Positions 1 to 21,616 of a stretch of DNA of 64,000 bases are shown here, piece by piece; the first letter of the stretch is position 1; each line of letters starts with the position of its first letter. The DNA is from a virus. Its lineage: Duplodnaviria > Caudoviricetes. The stretch covers positions 1,484 through 65,483 of IMG/VR virus record IMGVR_UViG_3300007722_000012. One strand, given 5' to 3'. The notes under the pieces were generated by a model. The model was not told the origin of the DNA. It did not search any database and saw only the letters and a list, made by a program, of their open reading frames with translations. The translations under genes and the position numbers were made by a program.

Positions 1-39
1 GTGGCTCATCCTGGATAATGTAATCTATCCGCTGCTCTC

Positions 40-117
40 TGGTGGATGATCTGAGAGTCGAACTCAGAATCTGAATATTTTGAGTATTCAAGGTATACCA
101 ATTCCCTTCAATCATCC
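40..117 (-). tRNA. tRNA-Leu(CAA), short variable loop
   Basis: Cloverleaf GGATGAT...ATCATCC-ACCA; anticodon arm GAATA-CTCAAAA-TATTC; T-loop GTTCGAC. Confidence 0.88.
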
Positions 118-156
118 GCGTATAAAAATTCCCAAAGTTTAAGTCTCCGTAAAAGT

Positions 157-240
157 CGTAAGACGCATTAATTCATTATGCTTGCTACCAGCAATTCCTA
201 TATGGTCATTGCCCTGGACGTGAACCAGGTTATTCTTACA
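157..240 (-). ncRNA. Circularly permuted tRNA-like RNA candidate
   Basis: TGTAAGA/TCTTACG closing stem; T-arm CCTGG-TTCACGT-CCAGG precedes a GCAAT...ATTGC acceptor-like hairpin that contains ACCA. Confidence 0.35.
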
Positions 241-245
241 AAATT

Positions 246-366
246 TGGCGCCCCTAAGGGGAATTTAACTCCTCTGCCTCCGGCTTCAAATCCGGCTAAC
301 AATAAATGCAATACTAACTAAACCCGCTAACGCAGATCAGATTTCTATGCACTTCCAATCAAGGGC
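246..366 (-). ncRNA. tRNA-like RNA with greatly enlarged D-region
   Basis: Acceptor GCCCTTG/TAGGGGC-G-CCA, T-arm-like AGGAG-TTAAATT-CCCCT, hairpin CCGG-ATTTGAAG-CCGG; 121 nt. Confidence 0.5.
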
Positions 367-372
367 AAAACT

Positions 373-451
373 TGGCGGAGATGATGGGTAACGATCCCAC
401 CTGATAGCTTGCGTGACAGGCAAGTGACCACACCATGCAGTCCCCATCTCC
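373..451 (-). tRNA. tRNA-Asp(GTC)
   Basis: Anticodon arm CTTGC-CTGTCAC-GCAAG; acceptor GGAGATG/CATCTCC-GCCA. Confidence 0.88.
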
Positions 452-746
452 TTAAAAACTTTAGGTTACTACTATTTTTTACTACTCCGATCAAGGAGCG
501 TTTGATCAATAGGTTCACCAAGGTGTAGATAACATAGAGCTGATTAGTGCCTGCTTCTCTCGACCTAAAAATATACCATCTGCAGCATTGCTCCAAACAG
601 TTGTGTGAGTGGTCCGTATGCATGGGGGCTTTTACCCCGCATTTTCTTCTAGGCTTTCGACCCAGACACCGTTGATCACGGTAAGGAACACCTAGGGACC
701 ATGATGTTCGGCGCTTACTATTTTGGGTGATCAGCCCAATCAATTT

Positions 747-832
747 TGGTGGAGAGGATTGGATTTGAACCAATGTGCTTTTTACAGAACGGATTTACAG
801 TCCGTCGCCTTCAACCGCTCGGCCACCTCTCC
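747..832 (-). tRNA. tRNA-Tyr(GTA)
   Basis: ACGGA-CTGTAAA-TCCGT arm, long variable arm, encoded CCA. Confidence 0.92.
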
Positions 833-908
833 AATGTGCTATCAATTATCAAGATGTTTTGATTTTGGGCTAATCTCTTGAACCCTTTTAGCAGGGTAAC
901 GCTTAACT

Positions 909-1008
909 TGGCCCTCAGTATGGAATCGAACCATCGGCTTGATTTTACTCGGCAGCATTAGGTCCTTAACCATGAGCCGAATCAGTTCTACCACTGAACT
1001 ACTGGGGA
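909..1008 (-). ncRNA. tRNA-like RNA with extended anticodon arm (Asn-like body)
   Basis: TCCCCAG-TAGTTCAGTGGTAGAAC D-arm and GGTTCGATTCC T-arm flank a ~45-nt nested hairpin. Confidence 0.55.
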
Positions 1009-1013
1009 TAAAC

Positions 1014-1091
1014 TGGAACACTCGATCCGATTCGCACGGATGGTTTTTCTGCTTTGCAGGCAGGTGCGTTGGGCTTCTCCGCCACGAGTGC
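1014..1091 (-). tRNA. tRNA-Cys(GCA)
   Basis: CTGC-CTGCAAA-GCAG arm; acceptor GCACTCG/CGAGTGT-TCCA. Confidence 0.85.
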
Positions 1092-1098
1092 ATAAATT

Positions 1099-1150
1099 TG
1101 GTGGGTGCAGATGGATTCGAACTAAAACAGGAATCGAACCTGCACAACCT
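1099..1150 (-). pseudogene. Fused tRNA 3' fragments
   Basis: Two TTCGA T-loop remnants and ...GCACCCACCA, with no D or anticodon arm. Confidence 0.5.
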
Positions 1151-1426
1151 AACCCTATAAGTCAAGCCGTCTCCACTACGTCGGCTGCCGCCTTTGTGTT
1201 TTTAAATATAACCACGCAATACTGGCCAAGGAAATTTCCATGTATCACATTGTTATATTGAAGAACACTATAGGAACCTAGCGGTTGTTCACAACCGATC
1301 CCCGCCTACTACCGAATGTAGCTTCAGACGATAATGTACTTCAATATAACCCCTTGCACACAATGCTATCACAGCAGGTGGATCCGCAGCCCTCTGCTGC
1401 CCCCGAAATTTATTTATGCCATTGGA

Positions 1427-1504
1427 TGGTGCCCTCGGCTGGATTCGAACCTGCACGACCTTCGTTCTAAGCGAAGTACCTCATACCAATTGGGTTACGA
1501 GGGC
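1427..1504 (-). tRNA. tRNA-Leu(TAG), short variable loop
   Basis: CTTCG-CTTAGAA-CGAAG arm; GCCCTCG/CGAGGGC-ACCA. Confidence 0.88.
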
Positions 1505-1508
1505 GAAA

Positions 1509-1583
1509 TGGTACTGCGTATGGGTAACGATCCCATCTATCCAGGTTGAAAGCCTGGTGACCTCACCTGAAGTCGAACGCAGT
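1509..1583 (-). tRNA. tRNA-Glu(TTC)
   Basis: CCAGG-CTTTCAA-CCTGG arm; ACTGCGT/ACGCAGT-ACCA. Confidence 0.88.
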
Positions 1584-1593
1584 GAAAAAACTT

Positions 1594-1661
1594 TGGGGTA
1601 ACGTACGAGAGTTGAACTCGTACTAACAGAATCTGTGGTGCTGCCGCTACACTAACGTCAC
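1594..1661 (-). pseudogene. tRNA-His-like gene lacking the anticodon loop
   Basis: Acceptor GTGACGT/ACGTTAC with C discriminator and CCA; D and T arms intact; anticodon arm reduced to ACAGATTCTGT. Confidence 0.7.
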
Positions 1662-1683
1662 ACTAAAGTTCTCTAAAAATTGT

Positions 1684-1775
1684 TGGCTCCCCAGAGAGGC
1701 TTTGAACCTCCATAACGGCTAGGCCGCATACACTTGATTAACAGTCAAGCCTCTTACCAGTTAGAGTACCGGGGA
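1684..1775 (-). tRNA. tRNA-Asn(GTT) with long variable arm
   Basis: CTTGA-CTGTTAA-TCAAG arm; variable hairpin GCGGC-CTA-GCCGT. Confidence 0.85.
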
Positions 1776-1783
1776 ATAAAATA

Positions 1784-1861
1784 TGGTCTCCGATACTGGA
1801 TTCAAACCAGTGTTATTCTTCGTCCCAAACGAAGTGCCACATCAGACTAGGCGAATCGGAG
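1784..1861 (-). tRNA. tRNA-Pro(TGG)
   Basis: CTTCG-TTTGGGA-CGAAG arm; CTCCGAT/ATCGGAG-ACCA. Confidence 0.88.
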
Positions 1862-1866
1862 AAATT

Positions 1867-1942
1867 TGGTACCTGGTGTGAGATTCGAACCCACTATCTA
1901 TCGATTATCGGTCGATTGCATGGCCATATATGCTCCCCAGGC
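1867..1942 (-). tRNA. tRNA-Ile(GAT)
   Basis: ATCGA-CCGATAA-TCGAT arm; T-loop GTTCGAAT; CCA. Confidence 0.85.
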
Positions 1943-1953
1943 GTATCCATACC

Positions 1954-2103
1954 CTTCGGCTATTTGACGAGAGCGAATCATTGTCTTTTTACCCGAGAGT
2001 TTCGCTGTATTTCAACAGCTCATCAGTGGAATTGGTGAACCCGTTTCTCAGCCGGTTCGGAGTCACGCGGGTACTAGTGACGCTATTCTCGTTAATGCCG
2101 AAG
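1954..2103 (-). ncRNA. Structured RNA containing a hammerhead ribozyme core
   Basis: CTGATGA-GCTGT(TGAAAT)ACAGC-GAAAC enclosed by CTTCGGC/GCCGAAG and ACGAG/CTCGT stems. Confidence 0.55.
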
Positions 2104-2110
2104 CATGTTT

Positions 2111-2194
2111 TGGTGGTCCCGCGTGGTAACGCACCACTTGCTACTTCCAATCTTTAAGCAAAAGTTTTACAGACTTCCGACTGGGGACAGGACC
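2111..2194 (-). ncRNA. D-armless tRNA-like RNA, GTA anticodon
   Basis: Acceptor GGTCCTG/CGGGACC-ACCA; GAAGT-CTGTAAA-ACTTT arm; long variable region; T-arm GTGG/CCAC; no D stem. Confidence 0.65.
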
Positions 2195-2202
2195 TAAATT
2201 TT

Positions 2203-2335
2203 CTATTCTAAATAACTCTGTGGGACTCGAACCCAAGATAATGCCCTCCCTTCATCGGCCTGCCTGACAACGGACTAGTATTGGTGTCAGGCTATCGGTG
2301 TTCCGACTGTAGCATCTCAAAGTTATTTAGAATAG
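2203..2335 (-). ncRNA. Inverted-repeat-closed structured RNA with T-arm
   Basis: Perfect 15-bp IR (2203-2217/2321-2335); internal GCCTGACA/TGTCAGGC hairpin; TGGG-TTCGAGT-CCCA. Confidence 0.55.
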
Positions 2336-2336
2336 T

Positions 2337-2430
2337 CACTATTCTAGAACACACTATCTTCAACCTGCGTTTCTCACAATGCGCGATGCGGATCGTGTCC
2401 GCGCCGGCGACAATGTGTTCTAGAATAGTG
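2337..2430. repeat. 17-bp perfect inverted repeat enclosing a GC-rich 60-nt segment
   Basis: cactattctagaacaca (2337-2353) / tgtgttctagaatagtg (2414-2430). Confidence 0.8.
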
Positions 2431-2618
2431 TGATCTGATCTTTCACAGACCCACACTATGTTAGGGTTGTTACCCTAACCCGGATTTTTAGCTTCAGAAA
2501 AGAAGTTCCATCCTCGGAGCCGCCCATTTACGATGTTATAGTGTTCGTTCAGCTCGCGTTGCTGATTCACTTTGTTAGGTTTAGTTAAAATTCGTTCGTT
2601 TCATAAAATCCTTCGTTC

Positions 2619-2655
2619 AAAAAAAAATCCCAGTACCTTTGGGTTACCGGGATTT
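2619..2655 (-). terminator. Rho-independent terminator (attenuator) upstream of the tRNA cluster
   Basis: AAATCCCGGTAACC-CAAA-GGTACTGGGA followed by T9. Confidence 0.8.
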
Positions 2656-2676
2656 GAAAATGATCGTTAAATCTAT

Positions 2677-2823
2677 TCAAATACCCGGAACCCCGGTTGT
2701 ATATTCGTGTGCATTGAGCGTAATCTGCGGCGACACAGTAATCAGCTCAGAGCCGACCATATCAAAACTCGGACGGCATATAGCCAACCATAAGTTCTGT
2801 CTGTGTTTCGAGTTAGTTTTCAT
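2677..2823 (-). CDS. 48-aa putative attenuator leader peptide
   Basis: Translated by hand: MKTNSKHRQNLWLAICRPSFDMVGSELITVSPQITLNAHEYTTGVPGI*. Lies downstream of TATAAATA; its stop codon is in the antiterminator strand; SD is weak. Confidence 0.6.
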   Translation of the reverse strand: MKTNSKHRQNLWLAICRPSFDMVGSELITVSPQITLNAHEYTTGVPGI

Positions 2824-2855
2824 ACGTTTCTATCTAAAATTTCTTTGTTACTATC

Positions 2856-2863
2856 TATTTATA
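2856..2863 (-). promoter_or_regulatory. T4-type late promoter TATAAATA
   Basis: Exact gp55 consensus. Further minus-strand copies at 3301, 14080, 28043, 44496, 45563, 46946, 48063, 49747 and 52300; plus-strand copies at 25922, 39610 and 41979. Confidence 0.75.
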
Positions 2864-2890
2864 CATCTAAAAATCGGGTTTTCAAAAACC

Positions 2891-2991
2891 GTTTGAAGGA
2901 TACACTGGGGTTGCTGGTGCCGGGCGACTATTCCAGTGATTTTGAACTTACGGATACTTAAACCCGGGTTACAGACCTTTATCCTTCAAAC
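2891..2991. repeat. 12-bp inverted repeat enclosing a non-coding segment
   Basis: gtttgaaggata / tatccttcaaac. Confidence 0.7.
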
Positions 2992-3010
2992 AATTTTCAT
3001 TTCATAAGCT

Positions 3011-3040
3011 ATTATATCACGACTTTCAATAAAAGTAAAA
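3011..3040 (-). promoter_or_regulatory. Early (sigma70-like) promoter
   Basis: TTTTAC-N18-TATAAT with the shared TTTACTTTTATT motif. Confidence 0.7.
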
Positions 3041-3051
3041 TAAACTTTCAA

Positions 3052-3123
3052 TCATATGAAATACGATTTCCATTGGTTATCCTTGCGGATTGCCCAAGCG
3101 GCAGCGAGTCGTATTTCATATGA
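3052..3123. repeat. 15-bp inverted repeat hairpin
   Basis: tcatatgaaatacga / tcgtatttcatatga. Confidence 0.75.
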
Positions 3124-3152
3124 CGGCCGCCATGCGGCTCGTCGCGCCTACT

Positions 3153-3290
3153 TTACTTAAAGTAAGATGCGCCAAATTTAGCTAGTTCATCTTCGATCAG
3201 CTCATCCATATCCTCTTCGTCGATACCTTGGGCGTGAGCTGCCGCGATAATTTCAGCAACTTTTTCTTCAATCTGGTCGTCTGTCTACAT
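3153..3290 (-). pseudogene. Small acidic ORF with TAG at codon 2
   Basis: SD AAGGA, then ATG TAG ACA GAC GAC CAG..., open for 43 more codons to TAA. Confidence 0.55.
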
Positions 3291-3330
3291 TTAGTTTCCT
3301 TATTTATAACACTTTGGTTGGTAAGAATTT

Positions 3331-3360
3331 ATTATAACACAAACTATAATAAAAGTAAAC
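3331..3360 (-). promoter_or_regulatory. T4-like early promoter GTTTAC-N18-TATAAT
   Basis: GTTTACTTTTATTATAGTTTGTGTTATAAT; near-identical copies at 19389-19418 and 21588-21617. Confidence 0.8.
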
Positions 3361-3496
3361 TAGTACAACTTCTTCTCTAACTTCCACTTGAGTTGGGCAG
3401 CTGCCAACTCGACTTTTGTAAGTGAGTGCCAGCCGATGCAATTTCCCGTGGGACTGAGTTTGCACCAGCATGAACCGTTCTTGATTTTTGGTTTCA

Positions 3497-3862
3497 TCAG
3501 TGAAGAAATCTTGGTGGGTCTGTAGGATCCGATTCATCATCTTCTGCCAGATCTGAAAGCTTGAATGATTCGGCGTCGATTGTATCACCTGTGTTGGGAT
3601 CTATCACAAAGACGCTATCACTAACAGCTCCAAAAAGCGCCGCTAGAGAACGAGCTGCGTCCATGGCGACTTCAAAACGATCGGTTCCAGAGTATGGAAG
3701 ATTGATACTTACATTTAGTTCTTGATCGGTACCTGTACGATCTACTCCATCATCTAGAAAGAAACCTATATTACAGACGTATTCATCTTTGAGTTTCCAT
3801 AGAGAAATAACAGGGTACCCAGAAATACCAAACGAATTCCAGTTTGGAATTGTATCTACCAT
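3497..3862 (-). CDS. Hypothetical protein (acidic)
   Basis: 121-aa ORF packed in the operon. Confidence 0.7.
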   Translation of the reverse strand: MVDTIPNWNSFGISGYPVISLWKLKDEYVCNIGFFLDDGVDRTGTDQELNVSINLPYSGTDRFEVAMDAARSLAALFGAVSDSVFVIDPNTGDTIDAESFKLSDLAEDDESDPTDPPRFLH

Positions 3863-3863
3863 A

Positions 3864-5135
3864 TTAGATCTTTACGACCATCGGAATATCTAGAGCGTAA
3901 TCAAACCCGGCCGGTGTATAGTTGTAATCGGCGCATTCTGCTAGAATAAGACTCCGAACCTCACCATCAAACGACACGAAGACTAGTTTTGGGGGAATTT
4001 CCGCTTCAACAAAATGTTTAAAAATTTCATTTTTCATTTTAGTTCCTTTTGATATAAGATGCATTAGCCGACTTTGTTCCCAAAACATATCCAGAGAAAT
4101 ATCGGCGTGATTAATGATACCAGAAAGTTTATTATCAAGCATCAGTTCTAAAACAGCGACACCCGAGCCAGCTGTCGTTGATTGAATCGCGGATAAACCG
4201 GCGGTGCCCACATAGTGAGCCGAGAAAGATTTTCTAACATATCTGCCGGTACCGTCGACACCCTTGGCTTCGGCATAAACGACTATCACGTCATCGGTAT
4301 TGAATGGGAACACCCTTAGAAATTCTGCCTTAATATCTTTAAATATACCGCTATTTCTCGAAACAGCATTGAGAATATAGTTATAGTGAGTTGGATAACG
4401 AAGAGTTTTATAGGCAACGTTTGCAACATGTTTTAGTTCTTTAACTAGAGAACCAATACCACCCGAGGTGTATGCTGCTTCATATTGTATACCATCAGCA
4501 TAAACTGTTTCCAATCCCGTAAGTGGAGCATACGTTTTTTCAATACCATGGGCGCGAACTCGGCAAGGACGAATGAACTCATTGACTAGACCATCAACGG
4601 ACCATGATAGATTATATAGTTTAGCGCCTGCACCGTTTACGTTGCGGGGAAGTGCTCCAACGCTAATCATTAGATTGGAACACACGCCTGGCATTAGATC
4701 GGTACCGATAATATCCTTAACGAGCTTGTGACCCAAATAGTTAATGAAACCTGGCGCGAGACCGCATTTCACTGCGCAAGTTAAACCGCTATCCTTATAG
4801 ATAGTCTGAACAGTATCGGCGACAACATCATCTTCTGTGAAATCGATATAGTGACAATTAGCGGCGACTGCGGCGCATGCAATAGTTTCATTATAGTTAA
4901 ATGGGAGTGCGACAATAACATGAGTCGCGCCAACACTGACCAGCTTTTCAGTGATCTGAGCTGTGGTCATAGTATCAAAATCTATTGCGTGTTCAGGAAT
5001 CAGAGATAGTTTATCCCAAGTCTGAAATCTAGTTATAGCAGCAGCACCATCTTTTTCAAAAAAGAGGTCGTAGATAAATTTTCTGCAAGCAGAACCGATT
5101 TGACCAGAACCAAAAATAATAATTTTAGTATTCAT
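3864..5135 (-). CDS. Saccharopine dehydrogenase/lysine 6-dehydrogenase-like NAD(P) oxidoreductase; the last 57 aa (3864-4037) are probably a separate gene
   Basis: GSGQIG Rossmann motif; CGLAPG, VGALP and SWSVDGLVNE motifs; internal SD+ATG at 4037. Confidence 0.8.
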   Translation of the reverse strand: MNTKIIIFGSGQIGSACRKFIYDLFFEKDGAAAITRFQTWDKLSLIPEHAIDFDTMTTAQITEKLVSVGATHVIVALPFNYNETIACAAVAANCHYIDFTEDDVVADTVQTIYKDSGLTCAVKCGLAPGFINYLGHKLVKDIIGTDLMPGVCSNLMISVGALPRNVNGAGAKLYNLSWSVDGLVNEFIRPCRVRAHGIEKTYAPLTGLETVYADGIQYEAAYTSGGIGSLVKELKHVANVAYKTLRYPTHYNYILNAVSRNSGIFKDIKAEFLRVFPFNTDDVIVVYAEAKGVDGTGRYVRKSFSAHYVGTAGLSAIQSTTAGSGVAVLELMLDNKLSGIINHADISLDMFWEQSRLMHLISKGTKMKNEIFKHFVEAEIPPKLVFVSFDGEVRSLILAECADYNYTPAGFDYALDIPMVVKI

Positions 5136-5159
5136 ATTAGTTTCCAAAATATTATTTAT

Positions 5160-6536
5160 TTATGACATTTTAAAACCATTGAACTTGGATGTAGCAACTG
5201 AAGCAAGTCGTTGTGGCATTACAGCTGATACTGCAGGTTTAGATAGAGTTTGAGCAGATGCTTCAAGCGGATAAAACGTCATTTTAGTCTTATCTAAACC
5301 GCAGACAAACTTATCAAGCCCACCATATCGATTTTTCAACATCTTAATAATTACTTGGTTCATCGCGTTCAACTCTTCTGTGGCTATAATAGCGAATGCC
5401 ATATCGAGACTCATGATCAATCCAATAGAATCCGCAGTATCCGTTAGCGATACATCCGAATTATCGAAGCCGCCTCGGTTCAATTGATGACCCGTAAGCA
5501 CGGGAATATCATTCTCGATAGCCAATGAACGAAGTTCTTCGGCGATAGTTTTAATGAAGGTGTTGGTGTTGGTACTTCCACCCATCTTTATTCTAGCCGA
5601 TGAGCAGATTCCGAGATAATCGATGATAAGCAAGTCTGGAATAAAATTCTGTTTAGTTTTTAACTCATCAAGCAAACCCCGAAAGTGGCTAGAATGAGCA
5701 GCACCAGTAGGATATTCCTTAACATACAACTTACCGTGAGTTTTAGCCGAGATATTTTCGATCTTTGACATATAACTCTCTTTTTTCATACCCTTGATAG
5801 AATCAAGTTGTATGTTCATTAGATTTGCGTCCACACGTTCGGAAATACGGATTTCTGACATCTCCATAGTGATATACAGAACGTTCTTACCTATCTTTAA
5901 CGCATGCGCCGCAGTATTCGTCATAAAGATTGACTTACCACCACCCGACTGGGCGCCGACAGAGGTAAGAGTTTTCTTACCCATACCGCCCTTTGTAATA
6001 CCATCGAGTTCTAGAATACCGAACGAGATTTTATCTTCCTTCATGGTGTATTGATTGAAACGAGAATCTGCATCGCCAAGATAGTTATGCCCAACGCTAG
6101 AGTCGAAGTTAACGGAAATCGCCTCCTGAAGTAGTTTTGGGATAGCATCTTCAGTAAGAATAGATTTCCCGTCGAGAATCATGATGGATTCCATGATCCC
6201 TAGATATACAGAGCGTTTTTTGCAGAACTCCTCGGCGGCTGGTAACAACCAATCTATATCAGTCTGGGTGCTCGAAAATGCCGAAACCTTCTCATATGCG
6301 GTATCAATCTCGGTGTCGGATAATTCTTTATTAGATTTTAGTTCCAGGTTTAAAATTTCTTTTGTGATAGCCCGATTGTGCTTATTAAAGAAGTCCGAGA
6401 CTATCGTGAGAATAGTTGCTTCAGCTTTGTCTTGAAAATATTCTGGCTTTAGAAAAGGAATTACGATCCTACTAAATGTTTCATTTATTAGCAGATTTGC
6501 TAAAATTGTCCCCTCGATCTTCACTGTCATATTCAC
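5160..6536 (-). CDS. 41: Replicative DNA helicase (T4 gp41)
   Basis: Walker A AQSGGGKS; YITMEMSE, KEYPTG, IIDYLGI, QLNR, KNRYG. Confidence 0.95.
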   Translation of the reverse strand: MNMTVKIEGTILANLLINETFSRIVIPFLKPEYFQDKAEATILTIVSDFFNKHNRAITKEILNLELKSNKELSDTEIDTAYEKVSAFSSTQTDIDWLLPAAEEFCKKRSVYLGIMESIMILDGKSILTEDAIPKLLQEAISVNFDSSVGHNYLGDADSRFNQYTMKEDKISFGILELDGITKGGMGKKTLTSVGAQSGGGKSIFMTNTAAHALKIGKNVLYITMEMSEIRISERVDANLMNIQLDSIKGMKKESYMSKIENISAKTHGKLYVKEYPTGAAHSSHFRGLLDELKTKQNFIPDLLIIDYLGICSSARIKMGGSTNTNTFIKTIAEELRSLAIENDIPVLTGHQLNRGGFDNSDVSLTDTADSIGLIMSLDMAFAIIATEELNAMNQVIIKMLKNRYGGLDKFVCGLDKTKMTFYPLEASAQTLSKPAVSAVMPQRLASVATSKFNGFKMS

Positions 6537-19363: not shown

Positions 19364-19421
19364 TATGAGCCTCAGTTAGTATGAATTTATTATAACACAA
19401 CTTGCAATAAAAGTAAAAACT

Positions 19422-21581: not shown

Positions 21582-21616
21582 GAGTTTATTATAACACACT
21601 CATGAATAAAAGTAAA

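What the first reader, a model, noticed from the sequence alone, without database searches (positions are those of the whole stretch)
2619..2863. Candidate 'codon-sampling' attenuator that switches on the phage tRNA operon when translation stalls
Seen on the minus strand, in order: late promoter TATAAATA (2856-2863); a 48-codon ORF (2823-2677); segment GGGTTCCGGGTATTTGAA (2693-2676), which contains the TGA stop; segment TTCAAATCCCGGTAACCC (2658-2641); GGTACTGGGA-T9; then the tRNA/ncRNA cluster. The middle segment can pair either upstream (17 bp with two single bulges, an antiterminator) or downstream (an intrinsic terminator), and the two are mutually exclusive. The leader contains all 20 amino acids and, by hand count, 37 distinct codons in 48. 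Its 4 Leu use 4 different codons, its 3 Gly and 3 Val are all different, and all four Thr codons occur. Established knowledge: trp/his-type attenuators use runs of one amino acid, and phage tRNAs can offset host tRNA cleavage or depletion (PrrC, PARIS, retron effectors). Inference: a ribosome reaching the stop covers the antiterminator and shuts the operon off. Loss of almost any tRNA would stall the ribosome early and allow read-through, making this a general tRNA-pool sensor. Caveat: the SD upstream of the leader is weak.
Basis: partly seen in the sequence, partly recalled or inferred. Interest (0 to 1): 0.92.

Follow-up and report, generated by a model that had tools for sequence, protein, structure and literature searches.

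The report
Conserved switchable terminator before phage tRNAs
A short RNA module at the head of a phage's tRNA gene array can fold into either a stop signal for transcription or a hairpin that cancels it; three related phages share it, so it is probably regulatory, but the proposed codon-sampling design is not supported.

Summary
Every sequence fact in the finding holds. The T9 is the only T run of 8 or more in 64 kb.

New here: the module (late promoter, ORF, hairpins) has homologues at 68-69% identity in three IMG/VR phage records. In each it points into a tRNA/ncRNA array.

In 4 of 4 copies:
- the ORF is open with the same ATG and TGA;
- all 20 amino acids occur;
- a long hairpin and an overlapping terminator both exist.

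The peptide is not conserved. dN/dS is 0.56-1.4, and identity is flat across codon positions (0.61-0.71), against 0.76/0.83/0.40 in real genes. Helices with compensatory changes span the ORF.

Codon diversity is ordinary for this base composition (P 0.11 here, 0.44-0.61 in relatives). No copy has a Shine-Dalgarno site. In relatives an early promoter follows the terminator directly. This phage lacks that promoter, so here the site gates the whole array.

Best reading: a translation-coupled attenuator, about 0.38. An untranslated structured late RNA is nearly as likely. No expression data exist.

The parts
3011..3039 (-). Early-type sigma-70 promoter TTTACTTTTATT-N8-TGN-TATAAT. It is the last promoter of this type upstream of the tRNA array in this phage.
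   Evidence: 4 exact copies in the window, 0.36 expected; no copy with up to 4 mismatches, and no TGNTANAAT on the minus strand, in genome 1-4493 other than this one; more than 117 stretches in IMG/VR carry the motif.
2884..2998 (-). Structured non-coding cassette closed by a 19-bp A/U-rich stem. It lies between the early promoter and the late promoter.
   Evidence: -37.6 kcal/mol, z -3.0. L132 has a cassette with a T-arm-like motif at the same relative position.
2856..2863 (-). T4-type late promoter core TATAAATA (context TGTATAAATA).
   Evidence: The core is invariant in all four aligned copies.
2824..2848 (-). A-rich 5' leader with the block TTTAGATAG..AAA..GTATGAAA. No Shine-Dalgarno match.
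   Evidence: block invariant in 4 of 4. (SD pairing +0.2 kcal/mol). The transcript start is inferred, not mapped.
2677..2823 (-). 48-codon ORF, ATG to TGA. It is open in all four homologues, but the peptide is not conserved.
   Evidence: The codon-usage score lies at the 3.6th percentile of real-gene windows.
2678..2707 (-). Local hairpin H1 ('1:2'). Its core is CCGG (2696-2693) pairing with CCGG (2688-2685). The stem is invariant and the loop varies among the four copies.
   Evidence: -9.3 kcal/mol; barrier of 4.4 kcal/mol to the long hairpin. (it forms first in the nascent RNA of all relatives).
2635..2697 (-). Long hairpin ('2:3', antiterminator): arms 2693-2676 and 2658-2641, closing pairs 2697-2695 with 2637-2635, and an inner 4-bp hairpin at 2673-2662. 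The TGA stop lies in its 5' arm.
   Evidence: -25.2 to -27.5 kcal/mol. It is the RNAalifold consensus in 4 of 4, with compensatory changes at two pairs.
2629..2651 (-). Terminator hairpin ('3:4'). It shares 2651-2641 with the long hairpin.
   Evidence: -10.8 kcal/mol. Relatives have a stronger one at the same place (-18.0 to -19.3).
2619..2627 (-). T9 tract of the intrinsic terminator.
   Evidence: the only run of 8 or more T on either strand of the window.
2581..2613 (-). AAGGA Shine-Dalgarno site plus a 7-codon mini-ORF (MKRTNFN) directly after the T9. This is the start of the conserved array leader.
   Evidence: SD -5.5 kcal/mol. Homologous SD plus 6-codon mini-ORFs sit directly behind an early promoter in L079 and L112.
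1..1942 (-). tRNA/ncRNA array, running on beyond the window start. Between T9 and the first tRNA lie structured cassettes (2620-1943).
   Evidence: 15 ARAGORN tRNAs in genome 440-3344, plus an Rfam tRNA at window 1870-1942. (1940-2620, z -6.2).

Best explanation
The element is a transcription attenuator of the leader-ORF type. It sits at the head of the phage's tRNA/ncRNA array and is shared by a small clade of freshwater T4-like phages.

Proposed mechanism:
1. Transcripts from the late promoter carry a 48-codon ORF. In this phage, transcripts from the early promoter at 3039 carry it too.
2. The ORF's stop codon lies in the 5' arm of a long hairpin.
3. On naked nascent RNA the long hairpin forms as soon as its 3' arm emerges. 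It ties up the 5' half of the terminator stem, so the polymerase runs through the U tract into the array.
4. A ribosome that has kept pace and sits on the last ~10 codons or the stop covers the 5' arm. The terminator then forms and transcription ends.

Read-through into the tRNA genes would therefore rise whenever translation of the leader lags or fails.

Shown: the sequence elements, their mutual exclusion, their conservation, the open frame, and the unconstrained peptide.
Inferred: that the ORF is translated, that the terminator works, and that the ribosome is the trigger.

The leader is not a designed 'codon sampler'. Its many codons are a by-product of a sequence shaped by RNA structure. 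In this phage the early promoter that follows the terminator in relatives is missing, so this site gates the whole array, and its long hairpin is correspondingly stronger.
For: Structure
- The long hairpin (-25.2 to -27.5 kcal/mol) and the terminator (-10.8) share 2651-2641.
- The T9 is unique in 64 kb.
- Ribosome-footprint constraints switch the best fold to the terminator for every sampled P site from codon 40 to the stop. In the relatives the same happens when the RNA is blocked through the stop codon.

Conservation
- Three homologues at 68-69% identity, each upstream of and pointing into a tRNA array.
- In 4 of 4: late promoter, ATG, TGA in the hairpin arm, H1 stem CCGG/CCGG with a variable loop, long hairpin, and terminator.
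- In all 3 relatives the long hairpin is the best fold of the nascent RNA from length 68 to 82-84. The terminator wins only once it is complete, with an estimated refolding barrier of 10.3-13.5 kcal/mol. That is the layout of a kinetic switch.

Open frame
- Frame 0 is open in 4 of 4, while frames 1 and 2 carry 2-5 stops each. The only indel inside the ORF is 3 nt.
- Random changes at the 50 differing columns keep the frame open in 13-16% of trials. With the 1-in-3 chance that an indel is in frame, this is about 0.05 (my arithmetic).
- The peptide is free to change: dN/dS 0.56-1.4, with 26-30 non-synonymous against 2-4 synonymous codon differences. That fits a leader whose translation matters rather than its product.

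Context in this phage
- There is no promoter motif between T9 and the array, or inside the array, whereas relatives have early promoters there.
- Two mismatches of the relatives' hairpin are pairs in this phage.
Against: - No copy has a Shine-Dalgarno site. Of the 12 late-promoter sites in this window that are followed by such a frame, 7 show an AAGGA- or TAGGAG-like motif upstream of the ATG, by eye on the contexts.
- The consensus fold pairs the AUG region with columns 96-110.
- Identity is flat over codon positions (0.61-0.71 / 0.61-0.63 / 0.61-0.67), against 0.70-0.80 / 0.80-0.86 / 0.39-0.54 in five real genes of the same phage pairs.
- Six pairs with changes on both sides, against 1.7 +/- 1.1 in shuffles, span the ORF. 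That pattern also fits an untranslated RNA.
- The open-frame statistic is modest and rests on only two independent lineages.
- There is no run of regulatory codons.
- In relatives the terminator is thermodynamically dominant and is followed at once by an early promoter, so there it could be a plain terminator/insulator.
- Evidence that the lower stem of the long hairpin is itself selected is thin: one compensatory pair, whose 3' column also co-varies within the terminator.
- In the whole late transcript of this phage, a fold containing the terminator lies only 1.6 kcal/mol above the optimum.
Confidence: 0.38

Rival explanations
1. An untranslated, structured late RNA. The ~230-nt transcript from the late promoter to the terminator is either a non-coding RNA gene, one more member of the ncRNA/tRNA cluster, or a factor- or ligand-sensing leader. 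The ORF is incidental. Any switching between the long hairpin and the terminator is set by RNA folding or by a bound factor, not by a ribosome.
For: - Flat conservation over codon positions, with third positions at 0.61-0.67 against 0.39-0.54 in real genes.
- dN/dS near 1, with dS of only 0.5-0.8.
- Eight consensus helices with 94.5% of cells paired and 6 double-sided changes; 0 of 500 shuffles reach this, and slid controls give 0-2.
- No SD in any copy, and the AUG lies inside helix 1.
- The codon-usage score resembles that of spurious ORFs.
- Neighbouring units are non-coding cassettes, each with its own promoter.
Against: - The frame is open in 4 of 4 copies with an in-frame indel. Given that the window's frame is open, this is about 0.05 by chance. 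It is lower still if the chance of an ORF of 48 or more codons in the first place is also counted.
- A discrete sRNA gains nothing from a hairpin that forms first and competes with its own terminator, yet that hairpin is the nascent-RNA optimum in all copies.
- No Rfam family matches.
Confidence: 0.27
2. A relic terminator that has been neutralised, with no regulation. In the ancestor the module ended in a strong terminator that insulated the next early promoter, as in the relatives. This phage lost that promoter, and selection then strengthened the competing hairpin and weakened the terminator stem, so that upstream transcription always runs into the array.
For: - Relatives have a terminator of -18.0 to -19.3 kcal/mol whose U tract overlaps the -35 element of an early promoter.
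- This phage has a -10.8 kcal/mol terminator, a long hairpin of -25 to -27.5 kcal/mol that is the best fold at every nascent length sampled from 72 nt on (the complete hairpin), no promoter after the T9, and two extra pairs in the hairpin.
Against: - The U tract here is longer and purer (T9) than in the relatives (TTTTACTTTT), which is not what decay predicts.
- The competing hairpin already exists in the relatives and is their nascent-RNA optimum.
- This rests on a single lineage, so the link between promoter loss and a stronger hairpin is an anecdote.
Confidence: 0.15
3. An ordinary small late gene. The ORF encodes a 48-49-aa protein with its own late promoter and terminator (a moron-like unit), and the overlap of hairpins has no function.
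For: - Promoter, ATG-AAA start, open frame and terminator are present in 4 of 4 copies.
- JGI gene calling lists the relatives' ORFs as hypothetical proteins.
Against: - There is no purifying selection on the peptide (dN/dS 0.56-1.4), and third positions are as conserved as the others.
- Codon usage lies at the 3.6th percentile of real-gene windows.
- No SD.
- No homologue beyond the three relatives in 5.8 billion proteins.
Confidence: 0.08
4. The first reader's specific version, which is a special case of the best explanation. The leader has been selected to contain as many different codons and amino acids as possible. Loss of almost any tRNA would then stall the ribosome early and turn the tRNA array on, for example after attack by an anticodon nuclease.
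For: - All 20 amino acids occur in all four ORFs although only 38-46% of residues are shared. The single Trp codon sits at a different place in the window than in the relatives.
- A stall with the P site at 12 of the 13 sampled codons from 1 to 37 leaves the long hairpin as the best fold.
- Phage tRNAs are reported to counter tRNA-targeting defences (PMC10264068, PMC11555353, PMC12409363; search listing and first lines of the abstracts only).
Against: - Distinct-codon counts are ordinary for the composition (P 0.11, 0.61, 0.46, 0.44).
- All 20 amino acids arise in 3.8-5.7% of shuffles, and are kept through neutral divergence in 15-30% of open trials.
- There is no enrichment of codons read by the phage's tRNAs.
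- The nucleotide constraint is structural.
- All the caveats about translation listed for the best explanation apply here too.
Confidence: 0.12

Closest known systems
Leader-peptide (ribosome-mediated) transcription attenuators of amino-acid operons (trp, his, leu, thr, pheA type; recalled textbook knowledge)
   Same: - A short ORF lies ahead of an intrinsic terminator.
- Three overlapping pairings are present: 1:2 (H1), 2:3 (long hairpin) and 3:4 (terminator).
- The stop codon is placed so that a terminating ribosome masks segment 2.
- The peptide sequence itself is unimportant.
   Different: - No run of codons for one amino acid.
- No Shine-Dalgarno site.
- The leader is 48-49 codons, longer than the 14-32 typical of this family.
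- The 1:2 hairpin is weak, so an untranslated transcript is predicted to read through rather than terminate.
- It lies in a phage and ahead of tRNA/ncRNA genes, not biosynthetic genes.
pyrBI attenuator of E. coli (44-codon leader; coupling of ribosome and polymerase; recalled)
   Same: A long leader ORF without amino-acid-specific codons. The output depends on how closely the ribosome follows the polymerase.
   Different: In pyrBI the leader runs through the terminator and a close ribosome prevents termination. Here the ORF stops before the 3' arm, so a close ribosome would favour termination.
Small stable RNAs in the phage T4 tRNA gene cluster (species 1 and 2, rnaC/rnaD; recalled)
   Same: Non-tRNA structured RNAs of unknown function encoded next to a T4-type phage's tRNA genes.
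   Different: No sequence or Rfam relation was found. This unit has its own late promoter, an open frame and a terminator that competes with a hairpin.
T-box leaders (tRNA-sensing antiterminators; Rfam RF00230)
   Same: A structured leader with competing antiterminator and terminator hairpins, and a link to the tRNA pool.
   Different: No match to any Rfam family other than tRNA at a meaningful score in 1-6000. No specifier loop or T-box sequence was seen.

Membership tests
Leader-peptide transcription attenuator | Short ORF upstream of, and ending close to, an intrinsic terminator | tested here: met
   ORF 2823-2677. The stop lies 49 nt before the first T of the T9 tract (2627). The frame is open in 4 of 4 homologues.
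Leader-peptide transcription attenuator | Mutually exclusive antiterminator and terminator hairpins | tested here: met
   In relatives the long hairpin is the nascent-RNA optimum before the terminator is complete.
Leader-peptide transcription attenuator | Upstream 1:2 hairpin that competes with the antiterminator | tested here: inconclusive
   The H1 CCGG/CCGG stem is invariant with a variable loop in 4 of 4. It is weak (-9.3 kcal/mol) with a 4.4 kcal/mol barrier to the long hairpin.
Leader-peptide transcription attenuator | Tandem regulatory codons for the sensed amino acid | tested here: not met
   No amino acid occurs in a run, and there are 37 distinct codons in 48.
Leader-peptide transcription attenuator | Efficient translation start of the leader | tested here: not met
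   SD pairing is +0.2 kcal/mol, weaker than 83% of this window's gene starts. No SD in any homologue. The A-rich unstructured leader leaves SD-independent initiation possible.
Leader-peptide transcription attenuator | Termination responds to translation of the leader | not testable with these tools
   This needs reporter or coupled in-vitro assays. Only in-silico footprint constraints were run.
Intrinsic (Rho-independent) terminator | G+C-rich hairpin directly followed by a U tract | tested here: met
   Hairpin 2651-2629 (-10.8 kcal/mol), one A, then T9. Relatives: -18.0 to -19.3 kcal/mol, then TTTTACTTTT.
T4-type late promoter | TATAAATA about 20-65 nt upstream of gene starts, over-represented in the genome | tested here: met
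   16 sites against 4.9 expected. Twelve of the 16 have an ATG opening a frame of 48 or more codons within 4-65 nt; this one is 32 nt from the ATG. The core is invariant in 4 of 4 copies. Use by a gp55-type factor is inferred.
Stand-alone structured small RNA gene | Own promoter and terminator, conserved secondary structure with covariation, no coding signature | tested here: inconclusive
   Promoter, terminator, covariation and the flat codon-position pattern are met. The frame kept open in 4 of 4 speaks against 'no coding signature'.
T-box riboswitch | Match to the T-box covariance model | tested here: not met
   No such hit at E up to 1 in window 1-6000.
pyrBI-type coupling attenuator | Leader ORF extends through the terminator hairpin | tested here: not met
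   The ORF ends at 2677, 26 nt before the terminator stem begins.

The most novel reading that the evidence does not exclude
The module is a general sensor of translation capacity. It is wired to a phage's own tRNA supply and conserved in a clade of uncultured freshwater T4-like phages. When ribosomes fall behind the polymerase on the leader for any reason (tRNA cleavage or depletion by a host defence, starvation, ribosome shortage), the long hairpin forms and late transcription reads through into an array of at least 16 tRNA genes. This would be a feedback loop that answers tRNA-targeting immunity.
Probability: 0.15. Interest if true: 0.85.

Novelty: new variant of a known kind. Interest (0 to 1): 0.6.

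Why it matters
Phage tRNA arrays are now seen as counter-measures to tRNA-targeting defences (PMC10264068, PMC11555353; search listings and first lines of the abstracts only). How phages regulate these arrays is largely unknown.

Five full-text searches listed no paper on an attenuator ahead of a phage tRNA array. That covers only the open-access library that was searched.

A conserved terminator/antiterminator switch, with an ORF kept open but free to change, at the head of such arrays would be the first candidate cis-regulator of phage tRNA supply. It is small enough (about 250 nt) to test directly in a reporter.

Even if the ORF is untranslated, the element is a new conserved structured RNA tied to tRNA arrays.

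Tried and rejected
Searches for relatives that found nothing
- megablast and blastn of 1800-3900 and 2560-3060 against 50,697 phage records: no match.
- An 18-mer of the hairpin and the 48-aa peptide in IMG/VR.
- The peptide in 5.8 billion proteins.
- The profile of the four peptides: only the relatives' own ORFs.
- The 121-aa upstream neighbour: only itself.
- The 427-aa neighbour: three loci at 50-54% identity, none with tRNAs, and nothing in the metagenome contigs.
- A 22-mer of the upstream cassette in the metagenome contigs.
- Two motif scans for more homologues: only the same three, plus one chance hit inside a coding region, L136.
- Covariance model R1 of the 3' domain over 68 sources (645 kb): only the four copies above E 0.01.

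Sequencing runs
- Sequencing runs: no RNA holder listed.
- Of the four runs laid, only X3 covers 2619-2863, and it shows no difference there. The three estuary runs (X4-X6) cover none of 2619-2863; what they cover is mostly in the array (1-1474). There is therefore no microdiversity data on the module.

Ideas considered and dropped
- Stop-codon recoding: the standard code fits, and all three stops are used.
- A degenerate tRNA: the T-loop-like TTCAAAT has no matching stem.
- Antisense coding: the plus-strand ORF 2639-2896 is not kept in L037.
- T-box or another known RNA family.
- Matching of leader codons to the phage's tRNAs.
- L079 as a relative 'lacking' the module: its first ~66 nt are identical to the end of L132, from the same metagenome. 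It is probably the continuation of that genome, so it is not counted as an independent case (inference).

Supplementary files of papers were not consulted. No paper was read beyond search listings.
Full report
**What the window is.** The window is bases 1484-65483 of a 65.5-kb IMG/VR virus record, estimated 36% complete. It is a T4-like phage. Its gp41-type helicase is at most 46% identical to those of cyanomyophages and Methylophilales phages. TATAAATA is over-represented, with 16 sites against 4.9 expected. Twelve of the 16 have an ATG that opens a frame of 48 or more codons within 4-65 nt downstream. Near-identical DNA is held by three freshwater metagenome runs, each from a different study.

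**The observation.** Every coordinate and count in the finding is right.
- The 48-codon ORF (2823-2677, minus strand) uses 37 distinct codons and all 20 amino acids.
- The minimum-energy fold of 2610-2700 is the 17-bp hairpin with two single bulges plus three closing pairs, -27.5 kcal/mol.
- The terminator hairpin (2651-2629, -10.8 kcal/mol) shares 11 bases with the long hairpin's 3' arm and is followed by one A and T9.
- That T9 is the only run of 8 or more T on either strand of the 64 kb. The terminator is therefore not a chance feature.
- When the bases under a ribosome are blocked (P site -15 to +14), the long hairpin stays the best fold for 12 of the 13 P-site positions tried between codons 1 and 37. 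The terminator becomes the best fold at every position tried from codon 40 to the stop.
- The exception is a P site at codon 7. It reflects a fold of the whole late transcript that contains the terminator and lies only 1.6 kcal/mol above the optimum. Equilibrium pair probabilities are 0.98 for the long hairpin and 0.013 for the terminator.
- A third element is a local hairpin H1 (2707-2678, -9.3 kcal/mol) whose core is CCGG pairing with CCGG. It forms first on the nascent RNA and gives way to the long hairpin over an estimated barrier of 4.4 kcal/mol.

**Codon diversity.**

| Comparison set | >=37 distinct codons | All 20 aa | Both |
|---|---|---|---|
| 1200 real-gene 48-codon windows | 0.25% | 1.1% | 0 |
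| 197 short ORFs | 2.0% | 1.5% | 0.5% |
| Random sequence of genome composition | 4.5% | 3.1% | 0.5% |
| Shuffles of the ORF's own base composition | 9.8-10.9% | 5.7-6.3% | 1.5% |

The ORF has nearly equal base composition (A 27, C 23, G 24, T 26%), which explains the last row. Its codon-usage score lies at the 3.6th percentile of real-gene windows, and 21-31% of spurious short ORFs score at least as high. The many codons therefore mostly say that this stretch does not follow the genome's codon bias.

**Finding relatives.** Direct searches failed. The early promoter next to the module was the way in. TTTACTTTTATT-N8-TGN-TATAAT occurs four times in the window and in more than 117 stretches of IMG/VR. 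A blastn of window 3010-2600 against the loci fetched so far found three homologues of 2888-2623 at 68-69% identity: L037:4744-4471(-), L132:10243-10526(+) and L112:659-411(-). The three are about 90% identical to each other, so there are effectively two lineages. Further motif scans, a protein-profile search and a covariance model found no more.

**What is conserved** (alignments A1 and A2). In 4 of 4 copies:
- the late promoter core TATAAATA (the full context TGTATAAATA in 3 of 4; L132 reads TATATAAATA);
- the leader block TTTAGATAG..AAA..GTATGAAA;
- the ATG, and a frame open to the same TGA (48, 49, 49, 49 codons);
- the only indel inside the ORF is 3 nt, while frames 1 and 2 carry 2-5 stops each;
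- all four peptides contain all 20 amino acids. The single Trp codon is at codon 12 here and codon 32 in the relatives;
- the H1 stem is invariant with four different loops, and the long hairpin is the RNAalifold consensus with compensatory changes at two pairs;
- each copy has a terminator at the same place: -13.8 kcal/mol here in that fold, and -18.0 to -19.3 in the relatives.

In every relative's record the module lies upstream of, and points into, a tRNA/ncRNA array.

**How the ORF evolves.** The peptide is not conserved. Amino-acid identity is 38-46%. There are 26-30 non-synonymous against 2-4 synonymous codon differences between the window and the relatives, and 8-11 against 1-2 among the relatives. 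Nei-Gojobori dN/dS is 0.56-1.03 and 0.61-1.4 respectively.

Identity is flat over codon positions: 0.61-0.71, 0.61-0.63 and 0.61-0.67. Five real genes compared between this phage and three phages of the same promoter clade (three of the five against L132's record) give 0.70-0.80, 0.80-0.86 and 0.39-0.54, with 65-79% amino-acid identity. Third positions of the ORF are thus far more conserved than neutral sites, and first and second positions less than in proteins. The constraint acts on the nucleotide sequence.

The consensus fold has eight helices through the ORF and the hairpin region. Of its cells, 94.5% are paired, and 6 pairs changed on both sides, against 1.7 +/- 1.1 in shuffles (0 of 500 reach 6) and 0-2 in slid controls. 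The structure was derived from these same four sequences, so that comparison flatters it.

**Is the open frame chance?** Random changes at the 50 columns that differ keep the frame open in 13-16% of trials. With the 1-in-3 chance of an in-frame indel this gives about 0.05, which is suggestive but not decisive. Given an open frame, all 20 amino acids persist in 15-30% of trials, so that feature adds little. The relatives' codon counts (34-35 of 49) are average for their composition, P 0.44-0.61. Codons read by the phage's own 15 tRNA species are not enriched in the leader: 23 of 48, against 45% in genes.

**Kinetics in the relatives.** In the complete RNA of the relatives the best fold is H1, the upper hairpin and the terminator. 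On the growing chain, however, the long hairpin is the best fold from length 68 to 82-84. The terminator wins only when its last bases are out, with an estimated barrier of 10.3-13.5 kcal/mol between the two folds. This order, with the competitor forming first and the terminator favoured later, is that of a kinetic switch. The barriers are heuristic path estimates, not rates.

**Context.** In the relatives the terminator's U tract (GTTTTACTTTTATT) is itself the -35 region of an early promoter. From there the array leader starts: an AAGGAA Shine-Dalgarno site, a 6-codon mini-ORF, and then cassettes homologous to window 2571-2418. Their arrays also hold further early promoters.

This phage has T9 and then the Shine-Dalgarno site and mini-ORF, with no promoter. 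No copy of the early motif with up to 4 mismatches, no TGNTANAAT and no TATAAATA lies on the minus strand of the array. Here, then, all transcription into at least 16 tRNA genes must pass the T9. It is in this phage that the long hairpin is strongest, with two mismatches of the relatives turned into pairs, and the terminator stem weakest. That fits a functional link, but it is one lineage.

**Weighing.**
- Against: no Shine-Dalgarno site in any copy, although by eye 7 of the 12 late-promoter sites followed by such a frame show one; the AUG paired in the consensus fold; RNA-type conservation throughout; no regulatory codon run; and promoters after the terminator in relatives.

My odds:

| Reading | Probability |
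|---|---|
| Translation-coupled attenuator | about 0.38 |
| Untranslated structured late RNA (sRNA or factor-sensing leader) | about 0.27 |
| Relic terminator neutralised after loss of the downstream promoter | about 0.15 |
| Small protein gene | about 0.08 |

No expression data could be obtained.

**Comparison with known systems.** The element works like a trp/his-type leader-peptide attenuator in its topology. It fails two defining tests of that family, a codon run and a strong translation start, and its predicted default without translation is read-through. It is unlike pyrBI in that the ORF stops before the terminator. No Rfam family other than tRNA matches. Five full-text searches listed no attenuator ahead of a phage tRNA array. 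I saw only listings and the first lines of abstracts.

I rate it a new variant of a known kind, with interest 0.6. The element is real, conserved and cheap to test, but the trigger is unproven and the evidence rests on two lineages.

Noticed in passing
window 2581-2613 (-); L079:140-175; L112 about 330-370 (-): Directly after the T9 lies an AAGGA Shine-Dalgarno site (-5.5 kcal/mol) and a 7-codon mini-ORF (MKRTNFN). Homologous SD plus 6-codon mini-ORFs (MKSSNN, MNSSNN) sit right behind an early promoter at the start of the array leader in two relatives. A translated mini-ORF at the 5' end of a tRNA/ncRNA transcript is unexplained.
   Followed up: partly
window 3155-3308 (-): A second TATAAATA (3308-3301) is followed by AAGGAAA and an ATG that is immediately followed by TAG. 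The same frame then runs 44 codons, encoding an acidic, helix-like sequence with no start codon of its own. The standard code fits the genome as a whole, so this is either a start-stop element or a gene with an unusual start.
   Followed up: partly
window 3011-3039, 3331-3359, 19389-19417, 21588-21616 (-); more than 117 IMG/VR stretches: A very uniform early promoter, TTTACTTTTATT-N8-TGN-TATAAT, marks a large clade of uncultured phages. In relatives it precedes each small ncRNA cassette, with up to 8 copies in 6.6 kb. Its T-rich -35 region doubles as the U tract of the preceding terminator.
   Followed up: partly
window 1-2619 (-), against L037, L031 and L079: This phage's tRNA array has no internal promoter motif, whereas the relatives' arrays are peppered with early promoters. 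The array here would be one long transcription unit.
   Followed up: partly
window 1940-2620 (-) and 2884-2998 (-): The region is strongly structured non-coding RNA (z -6.2 and -3.0). It is organised as cassettes closed by 19-22-bp stems, some with T-arm-like motifs, and parts are homologous in L079, L112 and L037.
   Followed up: partly
window 1994-2050 (-): Rfam Hammerhead_3 hit below threshold (30.7 bits, gathering score 48.5, E 0.0014) inside the cassette region.
   Followed up: no
window 1870-1942 (-) and 911-1008 (-): Rfam finds a tRNA (41 bits) that ARAGORN misses; by eye its anticodon is GAT (Ile). There is also a weak tRNA hit (26.4 bits), which ARAGORN in intron mode calls Ser(gct) with a 19-nt insert.
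   Followed up: partly
window 25922, 40487, 41979 (+); 45570, 49754 (-): Several late promoters are followed at once by similar 5' stem-loops (GTGGTAATCGCG... or GTCACCCAC...) and then TAGGAG/AAGGAG. This may be a shared 5' element of late mRNAs.
   Followed up: no
L031:3910-3984 (+); L035:8683-9027 (+): A relative's array holds a tRNA with anticodon CTA (ARAGORN labels it 'Pyl'), a possible amber suppressor. Another locus of the promoter clade holds a tmRNA-like gene.
   Followed up: no
window 1-1474, runs X4-X6: Estuary metagenome contigs hold parts of the array at 95-100% identity, with a rearrangement joint (1456 to 40) and unlike flanks beyond 1382. This suggests the arrays are modular and get reshuffled.
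   Followed up: no
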